A DNA stretch of 64,000 bases, taken from Escherichia coli (GTDB lineage Bacteria > Pseudomonadota > Gammaproteobacteria > Enterobacterales > Enterobacteriaceae). The position numbers and the translations under genes were made by a program. Under the pieces are notes generated by a model that saw only the letters and a program-made list of their open reading frames with translations, did not search any database and had not been told where the DNA came from. Location: assembly GCF_003334335.1 (NCBI RefSeq), contig NZ_QOWQ01000011.1. One strand, given 5' to 3'. Positions 34,356-44,844 of the stretch are shown here, piece by piece. Position 1 is the first letter of the stretch. Each line of letters starts with the position of its first letter.

Positions 34356-35051
34356 TTAATCACGCTTTTCCAGCAGGGTCCGGTAAATCAGACCACCGAT
34401 AATGCCGCCGACAATTGGCACCACCCAGAAGAACCACAGTTGTTCTAATGCCCAGCCGCCCTGGAAGATAGCAACCGCGGTGCTGCGCGCCGGGTTAACA
34501 GAAGTGTTAGTCACCGGAATACTAATTAAGTGAATCAGGGTTAAGGCCAGACCAATAGCGATCGGCGCAAAACCTGCCGGCGCGAATTTGTCGGTTGCGC
34601 CGTGGATCACCAACAGGAAACCTGCACTCAATACCAGTTCAACTACCAGCGCGGAAAGCATGGAATAACCGCCTGGTGAATGCTCGCCATAACCGTTAGA
34701 AGCAAAACCGCTGGCTGCCGCGTCAAAACCCGTTTTACCACTGGCAATTAAATACAGCAGCGCCGCTGCAACAATACCGCCGACAACCTGGGCAATTACG
34801 TAGCCAACGACTTCTTTTGCCGGAAAACGTCCGCCAGCCCATAAACCAATAGTGACCGCCGGGTTAAAATGACCACCAGAAATATGACCAACAGCAAAGG
34901 CCATCGTCAGAACGGTCAGACCGAACGCCAACGCCACGCCGGCAAAACCAATGCCTAATTCCGGGAAGCCTGCGGCCAGTACAGCACTACCACAGCCACC
35001 AAAAACAAGCCAGAAAGTACCAAAACATTCAGCTGCTAATTTTCTGAACAT
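34356..35051 (-). CDS. aqpZ: Aquaporin Z, 231 aa
   Basis: ATG at 35049-35051 gives [24 protein letters not shown]; NPA motifs present (HFNPAVT, NPARS). Confidence 0.92.
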
Positions 35052-35476: not shown

Positions 35477-37135
35477 ATGATTCTTGAGCGCGTTGAAATT
35501 GTGGGTTTTCGCGGTATCAACCGTTTGTCGTTGATGCTGGAACAAAACAACGTCCTGATTGGGGAGAACGCGTGGGGTAAATCCAGCTTGCTGGACGCCT
35601 TAACTCTGCTGCTATCGCCAGAATCAGATCTCTACCATTTTGAGCGCGACGATTTCTGGTTCCCGCCGGGAGATATCAACGGGCGAGAACATCATCTGCA
35701 TATTATTTTGACCTTCCGCGAATCGCTGCCAGGCCGACATCGGGTTCGCCGTTATCGGCCGCTGGAAGCGTGCTGGACGCCATGCACCGATGGCTATCAC
35801 CGTATTTTTTATCGTCTGGAAGGGGAGAGTGCGGAAGACGGCAGCGTGATGACACTGCGCAGTTTTCTCGATAAAGACGGACATCCGATTGATGTCGAGG
35901 ATATTAACGATCAGGCACGCCATCTGGTGCGTTTAATGCCGGTGCTGCGCTTGCGTGATGCCCGTTTTATGCGCCGTATTCGTAACGGCACGGTGCCAAA
36001 TGTCCCTAATGTGGAAGTCACCGCGCGCCAGCTCGATTTCCTCGCCCGTGAGTTATCCTCACATCCGCAAAATCTCTCTGATGGGCAGATTCGTCAGGGA
36101 CTTTCCGCAATGGTACAGCTGCTTGAGCATTATTTCTCTGAGCAGGGGGCCGGACAGGCGCGATATCGTTTAATGCGGCGGCGAGCCAGCAATGAGCAAC
36201 GAAGCTGGCGCTATCTGGATATCATCAACCGGATGATTGACCGACCTGGTGGGCGCTCGTATCGGGTTATTTTGCTCGGCCTATTTGCTACTTTGTTGCA
36301 GGCAAAAGGCACATTGCGACTGGATAAAGACGCCCGTCCATTGTTGCTGATCGAAGATCCAGAAACCCGTTTACACCCCATTATGCTTTCAGTTGCCTGG
36401 CATCTGTTGAATCTTCTGCCATTGCAGCGCATTGCCACCACCAACTCGGGTGAGTTGCTTTCGTTAACGCCGGTAGAGCATGTTTGCCGACTGGTACGTG
36501 AGTCCTCGCGCGTTGCCGCCTGGCGTCTGGGGCCGAGTGGCTTGAGTACCGAAGATAGCCGACGCATATCCTTTCACATTCGTTTTAACCGTCCGTCATC
36601 GCTGTTTGCACGCTGCTGGTTGCTGGTGGAAGGGGAAACGGAAACCTGGGTTATCAATGAACTGGCGCGTCAGTGCGGACATCATTTTGATGCCGAAGGG
36701 ATCAAGGTCATTGAGTTTGCCCAGTCCGGGCTAAAGCCACTGGTTAAATTTGCCCGCCGAATGGGGATTGAATGGCATGTACTGGTCGATGGCGATGAAG
36801 CAGGGAAGAAATATGCCGCTACGGTACGCAGCCTGTTGAATAACGATCGGGAAGCCGAACGAGAACATTTAACGGCGTTACCGGCGCTGGATATGGAACA
36901 TTTTATGTATCGCCAGGGATTTTCCGATGTGTTCCACCGCATGGCGCAAATCCCGGAAAATGTACCGATGAATCTACGCAAAATTATCTCGAAAGCGATC
37001 CATCGCTCTTCCAAACCCGATCTTGCCATTGAAGTGGCAATGGAGGCAGGACGTCGTGGTGTGGACTCCGTACCGACGCTGCTGAAAAAAATGTTCTCAC
37101 GCGTGCTGTGGCTGGCGCGCGGTCGCGCGGATTAA
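35477..37135 (+). CDS. ybjD: OLD-family-like ATPase with C-terminal TOPRIM-like region, function unknown, 552 aa
   Basis: Walker A GENAWGKSS (about 35561-35584); Walker-B-like LLLIEDPETRLH; C-terminal LLVEGETETW and VLVDGDEAGKKY resemble TOPRIM E and DxD motifs; GGAGGGG RBS before the ATG. Confidence 0.85.
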   Translation: MILERVEIVGFRGINRLSLMLEQNNVLIGENAWGKSSLLDALTLLLSPESDLYHFERDDFWFPPGDINGREHHLHIILTFRESLPGRHRVRRYRPLEACWTPCTDGYHRIFYRLEGESAEDGSVMTLRSFLDKDGHPIDVEDINDQARHLVRLMPVLRLRDARFMRRIRNGTVPNVPNVEVTARQLDFLARELSSHPQNLSDGQIRQGLSAMVQLLEHYFSEQGAGQARYRLMRRRASNEQRSWRYLDIINRMIDRPGGRSYRVILLGLFATLLQAKGTLRLDKDARPLLLIEDPETRLHPIMLSVAWHLLNLLPLQRIATTNSGELLSLTPVEHVCRLVRESSRVAAWRLGPSGLSTEDSRRISFHIRFNRPSSLFARCWLLVEGETETWVINELARQCGHHFDAEGIKVIEFAQSGLKPLVKFARRMGIEWHVLVDGDEAGKKYAATVRSLLNNDREAEREHLTALPALDMEHFMYRQGFSDVFHRMAQIPENVPMNLRKIISKAIHRSSKPDLAIEVAMEAGRRGVDSVPTLLKKMFSRVLWLARGRAD

Positions 37136-38124
37136 CCGCGAAACATCGTGGCCATTTGTGGCTGAATAGCGTCGAGCATCTCATAGCGCCGACGGTATTC
37201 AGCCCGTTTTTTACTGGCGATTTCGGCAATCTCTTTTCGTGCTATCTGTGCTGGAAGGCGGTAATGGCGTTCAGCATCACATACGCCGCCAACCGATTCC
37301 CAGAAAGCGTTGTAATCAGCGTGGATCTTGCCTTCTTTATCGCGATAACGCAGGCTGCGGTAAATATGCGTTTCATTGCTGACGGCAATAATCTGCTCTA
37401 CCTGCAAACGTTGGGCAAACAGACAGGCCGCTTCCATCACGAGGCGTTTGGGAAATAGCCCGTGGCAGGCTTTCGTCGCATTCTGGATTTCCTGATGTGG
37501 AATTTCCCATTTTGCGCCTTGCAGTCCGCCAATAAACATCGTTCTTTTCCCCTGATATTCACACAGGGTAAACGTGATCTCTGCCAGAGGAATACCTTCG
37601 CTGTTGCGGAACAGGATTGTGCTGTCACCTTCTTTATCCATTGAGATCATCATGGTCAGCTCAAGCGTGAACTGCTCGCCGTTTTTGCCTTCCAGCTTCG
37701 CCAGTTGCAGCCCGGGGGTATTCAAATATAAGCTGAATTCTTCCGCCGACATACATTCGCGGAGTAACGCATAATGGTAACGTAACGCCTCCAGCAATTG
37801 CTTACGGCTAAGATTCGCCGCAAGGTAAGGGCGATGCAGACGCACAGGCAGTCGCGGCTGGCGCGTTAACAATACATTGAGATTAGGCCAGTGGGAAAGT
37901 TCGTTCATCCACTCAACGCTTAAACGCGGCATAATCAACGAGCGCAGCAAAAATTTCTGGCGAAAACTACGGCGATGCCAGAATTTACCCGGCCGACACT
38001 GTCCACGTGCCAGACTAAGAAAAAGTGACAGGCTGCTGAGAGATTCAGATGGCGTAAAGGTCCGTTCAGTTAGCTGCGACATATTCATGAAATCAATGGT
38101 TATACATGGCGTCGATTTCACCAT
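37132..38124 (-). CDS. ybjX: VirK/YbjX-family protein (DUF535), 330 aa
   Basis: 330-aa ORF; stop codon overlaps the ybjD stop (TTAA); internal in-frame Met codons at positions 13 and 15 make the start uncertain. Confidence 0.75.
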   Translation of the reverse strand: MVKSTPCITIDFMNMSQLTERTFTPSESLSSLSLFLSLARGQCRPGKFWHRRSFRQKFLLRSLIMPRLSVEWMNELSHWPNLNVLLTRQPRLPVRLHRPYLAANLSRKQLLEALRYHYALLRECMSAEEFSLYLNTPGLQLAKLEGKNGEQFTLELTMMISMDKEGDSTILFRNSEGIPLAEITFTLCEYQGKRTMFIGGLQGAKWEIPHQEIQNATKACHGLFPKRLVMEAACLFAQRLQVEQIIAVSNETHIYRSLRYRDKEGKIHADYNAFWESVGGVCDAERHYRLPAQIARKEIAEIASKKRAEYRRRYEMLDAIQPQMATMFRG

Positions 38125-38238
38125 TGCGTATCTTAACCAAACATCAATAGTGTGATTACTAACGTAAATTTTAGGGTTTTGTTGATATTTCGTTGAAGTT
38201 AATGACCCGGATTGGCATATGGAGTATTCAGAAAATTT

Positions 38239-39354
38239 ATGAAAAAGCGGAAAACCGTGAAGAAGCGTTACGTTATTGCGCTGGTGATAGTCATCGCCGG
38301 ACTGATTACGTTATGGAGAATTCTTAACGCACCCGTGCCGACTTATCAGACGCTGATTGTGCGCCCCGGTGATTTACAGCAAAGCGTGCTGGCGACCGGA
38401 AAGCTGGACGCGCTGCGTAAGGTTGATGTGGGCGCGCAGGTCAGCGGTCAGTTGAAAACTCTGTCGGTGGCGATTGGCGATAAAGTAAAAAAAGACCAGC
38501 TTTTAGGGGTTATTGATCCTGAACAGGCTGAAAACCAGATTAAGGAGGTCGAAGCAACGCTGATGGAGCTACGTGCGCAGCGGCAGCAGGCGGAAGCGGA
38601 GCTGAAACTGGCGCGGGTGACGTATTCCCGTCAGCAACGTCTGGCACAAACGAAGGCTGTTTCACAGCAGGATCTCGACACCGCCGCGACGGAGATGGCT
38701 GTGAAACAGGCGCAAATTGGCACCATTGACGCGCAAATCAAGCGCAATCAGGCTTCTCTCGATACGGCTAAAACCAATCTCGATTACACTCGCATCGTTG
38801 CCCCGATGGCCGGGGAAGTCACGCAAATCACCACTCTGCAAGGCCAGACGGTGATTGCCGCACAACAAGCACCGAACATTCTGACGCTGGCAGATATGAG
38901 CACCATGCTGGTAAAAGCGCAGGTTTCTGAAGCGGATGTAATCCACCTGAAGCCGGGGCAAAAAGCCTGGTTTACGGTGCTTGGCGATCCACTGACGCGC
39001 TACGAGGGGCAAATCAAGGATGTACTACCGACGCCGGAAAAGGTTAACGACGCTATTTTCTATTACGCCCGTTTTGAAGTCCCCAACCCCAATGGTTTGC
39101 TGCGGCTGGATATGACTGCGCAAGTGCATATTCAGCTCACCGATGTGAAAAATGTGCTGACGATCCCTCTGTCGGCGTTAGGCGATCCGGTTGGCGATAA
39201 TCGTTATAAAGTCAAATTGTTGCGTAATGGTGAAACACGCGAGCGTGAAGTGACGATTGGCGCACGTAACGATACCGATGTTGAGATTGTCAAAGGGCTT
39301 GAAGCGGGCGATGAAGTGGTGATTGGTGAGGCCAAACCAGGAGCTGCACAATGA
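38239..39354 (+). CDS. macA: Macrolide efflux periplasmic adaptor (membrane fusion protein) MacA, 371 aa
   Basis: ATG at 38239 gives [21 protein letters not shown]; coiled-coil and beta-barrel adaptor architecture. Confidence 0.9.
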
Positions 39355-41297
39355 CGCCTTTGCTCGAATTAAAGGATATTCGTCGCAGCTATCCTGCCGG
39401 TGATGAGCAGGTTGAGGTGCTGAAGGGCATCAGCCTCGATATTTATGCGGGTGAGATGGTCGCGATTGTTGGCGCTTCGGGTTCCGGTAAATCGACCCTG
39501 ATGAATATTCTCGGCTGTCTGGATAAGGCCACCAGCGGCACCTATCGCGTCGCCGGTCAGGATGTTGCCACGCTGGACGCCGATGCGCTGGCGCAACTGC
39601 GCCGCGAGCATTTCGGCTTTATTTTCCAGCGTTACCATTTGCTTTCGCATTTAACCGCCGAGCAGAACGTTGAAGTACCCGCCGTCTATGCTGGTCTTGA
39701 GCGGAAACAGCGACTGCTTCGTGCCCAGGAGTTGCTGCAACGGCTGGGGCTGGAAGACCGTACAGAGTATTATCCGGCACAGCTTTCGGGTGGTCAGCAA
39801 CAGCGCGTCAGCATCGCGCGGGCATTGATGAACGGTGGTCAGGTAATTCTTGCCGATGAACCAACCGGCGCACTGGACAGCCATTCTGGCGAAGAGGTGA
39901 TGGCGATCCTGCATCAGCTGCGCGATCGTGGGCATACGGTGATTATCGTCACCCACGATCCGCAGGTCGCTGCTCAGGCCGAGCGGGTGATCGAAATTCG
40001 CGACGGCGAAATTGTGCGCAATCCTCCCGCCATTGAAAAAGTGAATGTTACTGGCGGGACGGAACCTGTTGTCAACACGGTGTCTGGCTGGCGGCAGTTT
40101 GTCAGCGGTTTTAACGAGGCGCTGACGATGGCATGGCGGGCGCTGGCAGCGAATAAAATGCGTACTTTACTGACCATGCTGGGGATTATTATCGGTATTG
40201 CGTCGGTGGTTTCCATTGTCGTGGTGGGTGACGCCGCCAAACAAATGGTGCTGGCGGATATTCGTTCTATTGGTACGAATACTATTGATGTCTATCCCGG
40301 GAAAGATTTTGGCGATGACGATCCGCAATATCAGCAGGCGCTGAAGTACGACGACTTAATCGCCATCCAAAAACAACCGTGGGTCGCCTCAGCCACACCT
40401 GCCGTCTCGCAAAACCTGCGCCTGCGTTATAACAATGTTGATGTTGCTGCCAGTGCCAATGGCGTGAGCGGCGATTATTTTAATGTCTATGGCATGACCT
40501 TCAGTGAAGGAAACACCTTTAATCAGGAGCAGCTGAACGGTCGTGCGCAGGTCGTGGTTCTCGACAGTAATACTCGCCGCCAGCTTTTCCCCCATAAAGC
40601 AGATGTGGTTGGCGAGGTGATTCTGGTCGGCAATATGCCCGCCAGAGTCATTGGTGTGGCGGAAGAAAAACAGTCGATGTTTGGTAGCAGTAAAGTGCTG
40701 CGTGTCTGGCTACCTTACAGCACGATGTCCGGGCGAGTTATGGGCCAGTCGTGGCTTAACTCCATTACTGTCAGGGTGAAAGAAGGATTTGACAGCGCCG
40801 AGGCGGAACAGCAACTCACGCGTTTACTTTCACTGCGCCACGGAAAGAAGGATTTCTTTACCTGGAACATGGACGGCGTCTTGAAAACTGTTGAAAAGAC
40901 CACACGTACTTTACAACTGTTTCTGACGCTGGTGGCGGTGATTTCGCTGGTGGTGGGCGGTATTGGTGTAATGAATATTATGCTGGTGTCAGTGACCGAG
41001 CGGACGCGGGAAATTGGCATTCGCATGGCTGTAGGTGCGCGAGCAAGCGATGTTTTGCAACAGTTCCTGATCGAAGCCGTACTGGTTTGCCTGGTCGGTG
41101 GCGCGTTGGGAATAACACTGTCACTGTTAATTGCTTTCACCTTGCAGCTTTTCTTACCCGGCTGGGAGATTGGTTTTTCACCGTTGGCGCTGCTGCTGGC
41201 GTTTCTCTGCTCGACGGTCACCGGGATTTTATTTGGCTGGTTACCCGCACGAAATGCGGCACGACTGGATCCAGTAGATGCTCTGGCACGAGAGTAA
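39351..41297 (+). CDS. macB: Macrolide/peptide ABC exporter MacB (N-terminal ATPase, C-terminal FtsX-like permease), 648 aa
   Basis: Walker [19 protein letters not shown] signature; start overlaps the macA stop (ATGA). Confidence 0.92.
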
Positions 41298-44756: not shown

Positions 44757-44844
44757 GTTCACTGCCGTACAGGCAGCTTAGAAATTCACAGGTAACATAC
44801 TCCACCCGCCCACCATGTTCACTGCCGTACAGACAGATAAAATG
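44757..44844 (+). CRISPR. Orphan type I-F CRISPR remnant: two repeats and one spacer, no cas genes
   Basis: Repeat 1 at 44757-44784 is GTTCACTGCCGTACAGGCAGCTTAGAAA (I-F consensus); 32-bp spacer at 44785-44816 is TTCACAGGTAACATACTCCACCCGCCCACCAT; repeat 2 at 44817-44844 is GTTCACTGCCGTACAGACAGATAAAATG (degenerate terminal repeat); AT-rich leader-like sequence at 44606-44756. Confidence 0.85.

What the first reader, a model, noticed from the sequence alone, without database searches (positions are those of the whole stretch)
37125..37140. ybjD and ybjX are convergent with overlapping stop codons
The ybjD stop (TAA, 37133-37135) and the ybjX stop (TAA on the minus strand, 37132-37134) share bases within GATTAAC, leaving no intergenic space for terminators. 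Convergent transcription must collide or read into the opposite gene, implying antisense cross-talk or obligate coordinated expression between an OLD-like protein and a VirK-family protein.
Basis: seen in the sequence. Interest (0 to 1): 0.3.

Follow-up and report, generated by a model that had tools for sequence, protein, structure and literature searches.

The report
Ordinary four-base overlap of convergent genes
The E. coli genes ybjD and ybjX do end on a shared TTAA, but this is a common, already annotated kind of gene junction; each gene's transcript-ending signals sit inside the other gene, and no regulatory link between the two has been shown.

Summary
ybjD (+, 35477-37135) and ybjX (-, 37132-38088) share the tetramer TTAA at 37132-37135. 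The ybjD stop is 37133-37135 and the ybjX stop is 37132-37134.

It is not unusual. RefSeq annotates the same overlap, and 5425 of 5426 complete E. coli genomes carry this junction region. The overlap also holds in Salmonella, Citrobacter and more distant Enterobacteriaceae, as TTAA, TTAG or CTAG. A second example, amiD/ybjS, lies 12 kb away in this window. The four-base YTAR overlap is the known modal class of convergent overlaps.

"No space for terminators" is misleading, because the signals sit inside the partner gene. Published tables place the ybjX mRNA 3' end at window 36986, 146 nt inside ybjD, just after a stem-loop. They also report a bicyclomycin-sensitive (Rho) termination region near 36250. 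For ybjD I predict an intrinsic terminator inside ybjX: a hairpin at 37160-37204 (-25.7 kcal/mol) followed by T6. No mapped 3' end supports this yet.

The two mRNAs therefore probably overlap by about 227 nt, and the pair is already listed as a convergent "excludon". Cross-regulation and "obligate coordinated expression" are untested, and the gene distribution argues against an obligate link. Verdict: already known, low interest.

The parts
37132..37135 (.). TTAA tetramer shared by the two coding sequences. The ybjD stop is 37133-37135 (+) and the ybjX stop is 37132-37134 (-).
   Evidence: annotated the same way in RefSeq; conserved as TTAA/TTAG/CTAG in 13 orthologous loci
35477..37135 (+). 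ybjD, a 552-aa OLD-family ATPase plus Toprim nuclease of the lone 'class 1' type. Its C-terminus WLARGRAD* is invariant in all orthologues examined.
   Evidence: Pfam PF11398, PF13175, PF20469; PADLOC GajA E 6.8e-80, Old 1.9e-24; PMC13261556
37132..38088 (-). ybjX, a VirK/YbjX (DUF535) protein of 318 aa counted from Met13. The K-12 annotation starts 12 codons earlier, at 38124. The last 12 residues vary between genera but keep a constant length.
   Evidence: (PF04393)
37157..37212 (+). Predicted intrinsic terminator of ybjD, embedded in the ybjX coding sequence. The stem-loop is 37160-37204 (-25.7 kcal/mol), extendable to 37157-37206, and is followed by T6 at 37207-37212, which is the Lys-Lys AAAAAA of ybjX read on the other strand.
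   Evidence: z = -3.8 against 200 shuffles, none as stable; 2 in 1000 synonymous recodings of YbjX fold as well. No mapped 3' end was found, so this is a prediction only.
36986..37015 (-). Stem-loop at 37015-36987, with the published steady-state 3' end of ybjX mRNA at 36986 (MG1655 917982/917984). This lies 146 nt past the ybjX stop, antisense to ybjD codons.
   Evidence: hairpin -8.1 kcal/mol here, -10.6 in the paper; PMC10687069 Supplementary Data 2-4; coordinate offset
36610..36950 (-). C-rich, G-poor stretch of the minus-strand RNA (C/G up to 2.1 in 78-nt windows). It is a plausible Rho loading (rut) region just downstream of the ybjX 3' stem-loop.
   Evidence: This fits the pattern described by Dar & Sorek 2018. 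The rut assignment is an inference.
36250..36250 (-). Position of the peak Rho score in the published bicyclomycin experiment (MG1655 917246, '-', antisense to ybjD). Read counts were 299 upstream and 18 downstream without bicyclomycin, and 568 and 545 with it. Rho score 15.9, p = 6.9e-53. The method uses 800-nt windows, so resolution is low.
   Evidence: PMC7815308 Supplementary file 2
37152..37152 (-). Published 'internal' 3' end of ybjX RNA (MG1655 918148). It lies 8 nt 3' of the same inverted repeat as read on the minus strand (-26.0 kcal/mol), and 18 nt upstream of the first base of the ybjX stop codon. It is probably an exonuclease-stalled decay intermediate.
38106..38149 (-). ybjX promoter. 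PhoP box TATTGA-5 bp-GGTTAA at 38149-38133, -10 element TGAAAT at 38120-38115, transcription start T at 38106.
   Evidence: Sequence matches the elements mapped in Shigella flexneri (PMC12562796) and the E. coli transcription start at +18 (PMC2760140).

Best explanation
This is a compact tail-to-tail junction of two functionally unrelated genes, of the common four-base YTAR type. ybjD always ends in Asp-stop (GAY TAR). Read on the other strand in the ybjX frame, that sequence is itself a stop codon, so ybjX cannot extend further and the junction stays fixed.

Because there is no spacer, each gene's 3'-end signals lie inside the other gene.

(a) ybjX. This gene is PhoP-activated, with its transcription start at 38106. 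It is transcribed past its stop into ybjD antisense. Rho terminates it a few hundred nucleotides in. The steady-state 3' end sits right after a stem-loop, at 36986. This part is shown by published data that I mapped onto the window.

(b) ybjD. Transcription most likely stops at a strong hairpin plus U6 at 37157-37212, about 25-77 nt inside ybjX. This part is predicted from sequence only.

The two mRNAs would then be complementary over about 227 nt (36986-37212), which matches the pair's published listing as a convergent excludon. Any regulatory consequence, such as transcriptional interference or RNase III cleavage, is inferred and is probably small under laboratory conditions.
For: - Overlap and frames.
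- Junction region present at 90% identity or better, over at least 80% of its length, in 5425 of 5426 complete E. coli genomes.
- Overlap kept in all 13 orthologous loci examined: 6 Escherichia, 3 Citrobacter, 2 unnamed Enterobacteriaceae, Salmonella, and a metagenome contig at 73% YbjD identity. The tetramers are TTAA, TTAG and CTAG.
- Invariant YbjD tail against a variable but constant-length YbjX tail.
- Known class and local frequency.
- ybjX 3' end at 917982/917984 with adjusted p of 1e-44 to 1e-53.
- Rho region at 917246, Rho score 15.9, p = 6.9e-53.
- C/G above 1.4 over most of 36950-36610 on the minus-strand RNA.
- This matches the Dar & Sorek description of Rho-terminated transcripts, which end right after a stem-loop with the rut site downstream.
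- ybjD hairpin: -25.7 to -30.7 kcal/mol, z = -3.8, and 0.2% of synonymous recodings are as stable.
- Excludon listing.
Against: - No plus-strand 3' end near 37207-37214 appears in the Term-seq or TRS tables I could search. Some of those files were truncated when stored, and ybjD is weakly expressed.
- The hairpin shows no compensatory covariation (0 pairs changed on both sides; paired cells 87.0% against 86.7% in shuffles).
- The hairpin is lost in Salmonella, so selection for it as a terminator is unproven.
- The U-tract is separated from the main stem by 2 nt unless a U-G/G-C extension with a bulge forms.
- The minus-strand RNA over ybjD could partly come from an unmapped internal antisense promoter rather than ybjX read-through.
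- The Rho score position has only about 800-nt resolution.
Confidence: 0.7

Rival explanations
1. The overlap is a selected regulatory device, a true excludon. When PhoPQ switches ybjX on (low Mg2+, antimicrobial peptides), the ybjX transcript reads 150-900 nt into ybjD. It then lowers expression of the potentially toxic OLD nuclease through polymerase collision or RNase III cleavage of the RNA duplex. High ybjD transcription would do the reverse to ybjX.
For: - Transcript overlap is documented.
- The overlap is conserved across genera.
- YbjD is cytotoxic when over-expressed, and its chromosomal copy gives no phage phenotype (PMC13261556).
- ybjX is directly PhoP-activated.
- E. coli precedents exist for 3'-overlap regulation, for example mscL/arfA (PMC10070815).
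Against: - No dataset showing reciprocal expression was found.
- The 3'-end structures are not conserved as widely as the overlap.
- The overlap's persistence is explained without selection, by the invariant Asp-stop of ybjD.
- The two genes occur apart in other taxa.
- p19 double-stranded RNA capture could not validate convergent excludons in general.
Confidence: 0.15
2. Termination at this junction depends mainly on head-on collisions between converging RNA polymerases, not on the embedded hairpin or on Rho.
For: The concept is described for convergent E. coli genes that share bidirectional terminators (bioRxiv 10.1101/2022.10.23.513370). An inverted repeat that is stable on both strands (-25.7 and -26.0 kcal/mol) lies 25 nt from the junction, and a minus-strand 3' end lies 8 nt beyond it, at 37152.
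Against: - Both genes are weakly expressed, so simultaneous convergent polymerases should be rare.
- The large bicyclomycin effect shows that Rho does most of the work on the minus strand.
- The 37152 end lies inside the ybjX coding sequence, so it looks more like a decay intermediate.
Confidence: 0.08
3. The overlap is an annotation artefact, with one of the stops or frames wrongly assigned.
For: The K-12 ybjX start is wrong by 12 codons.
Against: A stop codon ends an ORF whatever the start is. Both proteins align end to end with orthologues of the same length, and the alignments reach the final residues.
Confidence: 0.02

Closest known systems
Four-base convergent CDS overlaps (CTAA/TTAA/CTAG/TTAG), as described by Lillo & Krakauer 2007 (PMC2174442)
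   Same: Two convergent genes whose stop codons share a YTAR tetramer. Terminators must therefore lie in coding sequence. E. coli has 58 convergent overlaps in that study.
   Different: Nothing essential. This is simply one instance of the class.
amiD/ybjS junction in the same window (24744-24747, TTAG)
   Same: It has a 4-bp tail-to-tail overlap, also after a GAT (Asp) codon. A published Rho-dependent region lies antisense to the plus-strand gene (MG1655 905089, window 24093). It also appears in the excludon list.
   Different: The genes are different. I did not examine its hairpins.
Convergent excludons (ExcludonFinder E. coli excludome, PMC12288877) and the mscL/arfA 3' overlap (PMC10070815)
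   Same: Neighbouring convergent genes whose transcripts overlap at their 3' ends. ybjD-ybjX is on the published list of 165.
   Different: Mutually exclusive expression and RNase III processing, which give the term its meaning, have not been shown for this pair.
Rho-terminated mRNAs with a protective 3' stem-loop (Dar & Sorek 2018, PMC6061677)
   Same: The ybjX steady-state 3' end lies immediately after a stem-loop. A C-rich tract follows, and read-through is bicyclomycin-sensitive.
   Different: Here the whole 3' UTR and the rut-like tract are antisense to another gene's coding sequence. The stem-loop is followed by AAUUUUG, so a weak intrinsic component cannot be excluded.
Gabija GajA and class 1 OLD nucleases (P2 Old; YbjD, proposed name OldB, PMC13261556)
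   Same: YbjD has the ATPase plus Toprim architecture and matches PADLOC GajA and Old models.
   Different: There is no gajB or retron partner next to it. The convergent neighbour ybjX is not a recognised defence gene (no PADLOC hit).

Membership tests
Four-base YTAR tail-to-tail CDS overlap | Two convergent coding sequences whose stop codons share one of CTAA/TTAA/CTAG/TTAG | tested here: met
   TTAA at 37132-37135. Orthologues carry TTAA, TTAG or CTAG.
Four-base YTAR tail-to-tail CDS overlap | Both reading frames are real, conserved genes | tested here: met
   Full-length orthologues exist for both. Pfam assigns OLD-like_TOPRIM/DUF2813 and DUF535.
Convergent excludon | Transcript of one gene extends antisense into the neighbouring gene (ybjX into ybjD) | tested here: met
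   Published 3' end at window 36986 and Rho region at 36250, mapped onto the window. Listed in the excludome.
Convergent excludon | The reciprocal transcript (ybjD) extends into ybjX | tested here: inconclusive
   Extension is unavoidable by geometry, and a terminator is predicted 25-77 nt inside ybjX. No mapped plus-strand 3' end was found.
Convergent excludon | Mutually exclusive expression of the two genes | not testable with these tools
   No expression data were accessible, and the literature search found none.
Convergent excludon | RNase III processing of the overlapping duplex | not testable with these tools
   p19 capture was uninformative for convergent pairs in general.
Intrinsic (Rho-independent) terminator, ybjD candidate at 37157-37212 | Stable stem-loop in the nascent RNA | tested here: met
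   -25.7 kcal/mol for the hairpin alone and -30.7 for a 71-nt context. z = -3.8, and 0 of 200 shuffles were as stable. 0.2% of synonymous recodings were as stable.
Intrinsic (Rho-independent) terminator, ybjD candidate at 37157-37212 | U-tract immediately 3' of the stem | tested here: inconclusive
   U6 lies at 37207-37212, but 2 nt after the main stem. It is adjacent only if the U-G/G-C extension forms.
Intrinsic (Rho-independent) terminator, ybjD candidate at 37157-37212 | RNA 3' end mapped at the U-tract | tested here: not met
   No such end appears in the Adams 2021, TRS 2023 or TERMITe supplements. Low expression and truncated stored files limit this negative result.
Intrinsic (Rho-independent) terminator, ybjD candidate at 37157-37212 | Structure maintained by compensatory change in relatives | tested here: not met
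   0 pairs changed on both sides. Paired cells were 87.0% against 86.7% in shuffles. The hairpin is absent in Salmonella.
Rho-dependent terminator (ybjX) | Read-through increases when Rho is inhibited by bicyclomycin | tested here: met
   Published table: downstream reads rise from 18 to 545, Rho score 15.9, p = 6.9e-53.
Rho-dependent terminator (ybjX) | C-rich, G-poor untranslated RNA downstream of the stop | tested here: met
   C/G of 1.4-2.1 over most of 36950-36610 on the minus-strand RNA.
Class 1 OLD nuclease (YbjD) | N-terminal ABC-type ATPase plus C-terminal Toprim, with no co-oriented partner gene | tested here: met
   Pfam domains, PADLOC GajA/Old hits, and neighbours aqpZ (divergent) and ybjX (convergent). 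PMC13261556 agrees.

The most novel reading that the evidence does not exclude
PhoPQ-induced ybjX transcription acts as an antisense brake on the core-genome OLD nuclease YbjD. It would do so through the 150-900 nt of ybjX read-through that covers the Toprim-coding 3' part of ybjD. This would tie envelope-stress signalling to the level of a latent, potentially self-toxic anti-phage nuclease.
Probability: 0.1. Interest if true: 0.45.

Novelty: already known. Interest (0 to 1): 0.1.

Why it matters
It matters little. The junction is a textbook-type compact convergent overlap. It is already annotated and already catalogued as an overlapping transcription unit, and the relevant 3'-end and Rho data sit in published supplementary tables.

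The useful by-products are three. First, there is now a concrete map of where each transcript probably ends. Second, there is a testable terminator prediction for ybjD. Third, anyone who deletes or tags either gene, for example with Keio-type deletions of ybjX or C-terminal tags on YbjD, will disturb the other gene's 3' end.

If the antisense-brake idea were true, it would link PhoPQ signalling to a phage-defence nuclease.

Tried and rejected
- Covariation test of the ybjD hairpin on 13 orthologues. It gave no compensatory changes and was no better than shuffles, so I do not claim selection for the structure.
- Rfam scans. Nothing was found at 36000-38300 even at E up to 1.
- Search for a mapped ybjD 3' end in the Adams 2021, Dar & Sorek 2018, TRS 2023, TERMITe 2025, Conway 2014, nanopore 2022 and ExcludonFinder supplements. 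Either no text was held or there was no entry. Ju et al. 2019 is not in the library.
- The built-in terminator scan reported only the inner 5-bp stem. My own window-wide hairpin plus T-tail scan was too permissive and also missed the candidate because of the 2-nt spacer. I discarded it as a benchmark.
- The small CGCGG-ATTAA-CCGCG hairpin centred on the overlap (37126-37140). It is not conserved even within Escherichia and has no U-tract on either strand, so I rejected it as a terminator.
- An obligate ybjD-ybjX module. I rejected this because distant YbjD homologues lie next to pgpA/dxs or to sugar-phosphatase and PTS genes, and the two Massilia loci that encode distant YbjX homologues contain no ybjD.
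- A literature search for ybjD together with PhoP found nothing relevant.
Full report
**What the window is.**
The window is E. coli chromosome. Its first 50 kb differ from K-12 MG1655 positions 880997-930996 by 9 substitutions, so MG1655 coordinate = window coordinate + 880996. Around the finding lie:
- aqpZ (34356-35051, -)
- ybjD (35477-37135, +)
- ybjX (37132-38124 as annotated in K-12, 37132-38088 as annotated by PGAP, -)
- macA and macB (38239-41297, +)

**Observation.**
Positions 37130-37136 read GATTAAC. ybjD ends GAT TAA, with the stop at 37133-37135. On the other strand ybjX ends GGT TAA, with the stop at 37132-37134. The coding sequences share the four bases TTAA at 37132-37135. RefSeq annotates the same overlap in MG1655 and in the other strains I looked at.

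**Is it unusual? No.**
- The 130 bp around the junction match at 90% identity or better, over at least 80% of their length, in 5425 of 5426 complete E. coli genomes. Both genes are annotated under the match in every listed row.
- The same four-base overlap is present in all 13 orthologous loci I retrieved. These are six Escherichia lineages, three Citrobacter, two unnamed Enterobacteriaceae, Salmonella enterica, and a metagenome contig whose YbjD is 73% identical. The tetramers are TTAA, TTAG or CTAG.
- Lillo & Krakauer (PMC2174442) described exactly this class. CTAA, TTAA, CTAG and TTAG account for the jump at length 4 in convergent overlaps, and E. coli had 58 convergent overlaps in their annotation.
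- In the 100 kb of MG1655 annotation starting at the window's first base there are 13 convergent junctions. Three are CDS overlaps (4, 4 and 24 bp) and one pair abuts with no gap.
- The other four-base case, amiD/ybjS (window 24744-24747, GAT TAG), is only 12 kb away.

**Why the overlap persists.**
The YbjD C-terminus WLARGRAD-stop is invariant in every orthologue. The last 12 residues of YbjX differ between genera but keep the same length. Read on the opposite strand in the ybjX frame, ybjD's GAY TAR is itself TAA or TAG, so ybjX cannot extend further. Transitions at the outer positions of YTAR keep both stops. No indel can occur without damaging the conserved YbjD end. I infer a neutral "capped" junction. 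No selection for regulation is needed to explain its conservation.

**Where the ybjX transcript ends.**
The ybjX promoter mapped in Shigella flexneri is present base for base in the window. The PhoP box TATTGA-N5-GGTTAA is at 38149-38133, the -10 element TGAAAT at 38120-38115, and the transcription start T at 38106. The same start was mapped in E. coli at +18 of the annotated ATG. This means the K-12 start codon is wrong and translation begins at Met13 (38088).

The TRS study (PMC10687069) lists a 'distant primary' 3' terminus of ybjX at MG1655 917982/917984, which is window 36986/36988. Adjusted p-values are 1e-50, 1e-44 and 2e-53. The 3' UTR is 147 nt and lies entirely antisense to the last codons of ybjD. 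I found the same stem-loop independently, at 37015-36987. The mapped end is the first base after it and is followed by AAUUUUG.

Adams et al. (PMC7815308, Supplementary file 2) list a Rho termination region on the minus strand, antisense to ybjD, at 917246 (window 36250). Read counts were 299 upstream and 18 downstream without bicyclomycin, and 568 and 545 with it. The Rho score is 15.9 and p = 6.9e-53.

The minus-strand RNA has C/G ratios of 1.4-2.1 over most of 36950-36610, just downstream of the stem-loop. This is the arrangement Dar & Sorek describe for Rho-terminated mRNAs: a precise steady-state end right after a protective stem-loop, with the rut site downstream.

So ybjX transcription does run into ybjD. 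A stable 3' end forms 146 nt in, and Rho stops the remainder within roughly 0.9 kb.

**Where the ybjD transcript probably ends.**
On the plus strand, 25 nt after the ybjD stop, there is a 45-nt stem-loop at 37160-37204 (-25.7 kcal/mol). It is followed by CG and then T6 at 37207-37212. In a 71-nt context the stem extends to 37157-37206, so that it abuts the U-tract. That fold has a free energy of -30.7 kcal/mol and z = -3.8, and none of 200 dinucleotide shuffles fold as well. When the 30 YbjX codons covering it are resampled synonymously with local codon usage, only 0.2% of 2000 versions fold as stably.

This looks like an intrinsic terminator embedded in the ybjX coding sequence. The U-tract is the Lys-Lys AAAAAA of YbjX read on the other strand.

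The caveats are these:
- No plus-strand 3' end is reported there in any table I could search.
- There is no compensatory covariation among 13 orthologues.
- The hairpin is retained in Escherichia, altered in Citrobacter and absent in Salmonella.

It remains a prediction.

**A second minus-strand 3' end.**
The same inverted repeat is equally stable on the minus strand (-26.0 kcal/mol). A published 'internal' ybjX 3' end lies 8 nt beyond it, at window 37152. I read this as an exonuclease-stalled decay product.

**Consequence.**
If both ends are right, the two mRNAs are complementary over about 227 nt (36986-37212). ExcludonFinder (PMC12288877) lists ybjD-ybjX among the 165 convergent excludons seen in at least 50% of 58 MG1655 RNA-seq samples. 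The same list contains amiD-ybjS, ycaM-ycaN and ycbJ-elyC from this neighbourhood.

The stronger claims are not supported:
- I found no evidence of reciprocal expression.
- p19 double-stranded RNA capture was uninformative for convergent pairs.
- The 2026 paper on YbjD treats ybjX as an unrelated convergent neighbour.

**Are the genes a functional pair? Probably not.**
- YbjD is an OLD-family protein. It carries Pfam DUF2813, AAA_15 and OLD-like_TOPRIM, and matches PADLOC GajA at E = 6.8e-80 and Old at 1.9e-24. It was characterised as a lone class 1 OLD.
- YbjX is a DUF535/VirK-family protein with no PADLOC or NCBIfam hit.
- In Citrobacter and the two unnamed Enterobacteriaceae, YbjD is 85-91% identical where YbjX is only 48-77%.
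- Homologues of YbjD at 41-53% identity sit in unrelated contexts without a DUF535 gene.
- The two Massilia loci that encode distant YbjX homologues contain no ybjD, and Shigella virK sits in a plasmid operon.

**Verdict.**
The feature is an ordinary, already annotated and already catalogued member of a well-known class. The only new element here is a sequence-based prediction of the ybjD terminator, together with a consolidated map of the two 3' ends. The most interesting reading that remains open is that PhoP-driven ybjX read-through damps the OLD nuclease. It is possible but has no direct support.

Noticed in passing
window 24744-24747 (amiD + / ybjS -): A second four-base convergent overlap (TTAG) occurs in the same window, again after a GAT Asp codon. 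Adams et al. also list a Rho region antisense to amiD at MG1655 905089 (window 24093), and the pair is in the excludon list.
   Followed up: partly
window 38088-38124 (-): The K-12 annotation starts ybjX 12 codons too early. The mapped transcription start (38106) lies downstream of that ATG, and PGAP and two papers place the start at Met13 (38088) or Met15 (38082).
   Followed up: yes
window 37152 (-): A published 'internal' 3' end of ybjX RNA lies 18 nt upstream of the first base of the stop codon and 8 nt past a strong inverted repeat. Such RNAs would lack a stop codon. It is probably a decay intermediate, but that is unexplained.
   Followed up: partly
window 44757-44784 (+): A single 28-nt match to Rfam CRISPR-DR4 (50.1 bits, above the gathering score) lies between clpA and tRNA-Ser serW. 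It may be an orphan CRISPR repeat; that interpretation comes from my own recollection and was not examined.
   Followed up: no
L012, L013, L009-L011 compared with the window: Across the same genomes, YbjD is far better conserved (85-91% identity) than its convergent neighbour YbjX (48-77%).
   Followed up: partly
L023 (GCA_001601735.1), 1641-4328: In this genome both ybjD (three fragments) and ybjX (168 aa) appear broken into pieces, and so do lysO and macA. It looks like a genome undergoing pseudogenisation.
   Followed up: no
L017 (Salmonella enterica), 1400-2501: Salmonella has lysO directly upstream of ybjD, with no aqpZ between them as there is in E. coli.
   Followed up: no
window 6980-7058 (-), 59738-59872 (-), 19756-19836 (+), 18734-18776 (+): Rfam gathering-level hits to RybB, STnc130, naRNA4 and ES036. 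RybB is annotated at this position in MG1655.
   Followed up: no
MG1655 972622-972645 (outside the window) and 948659/948660: ycbJ/elyC overlap tail to tail by 24 bp, and ycaM/ycaN abut with no gap. Both pairs are on the published excludon list.
   Followed up: no
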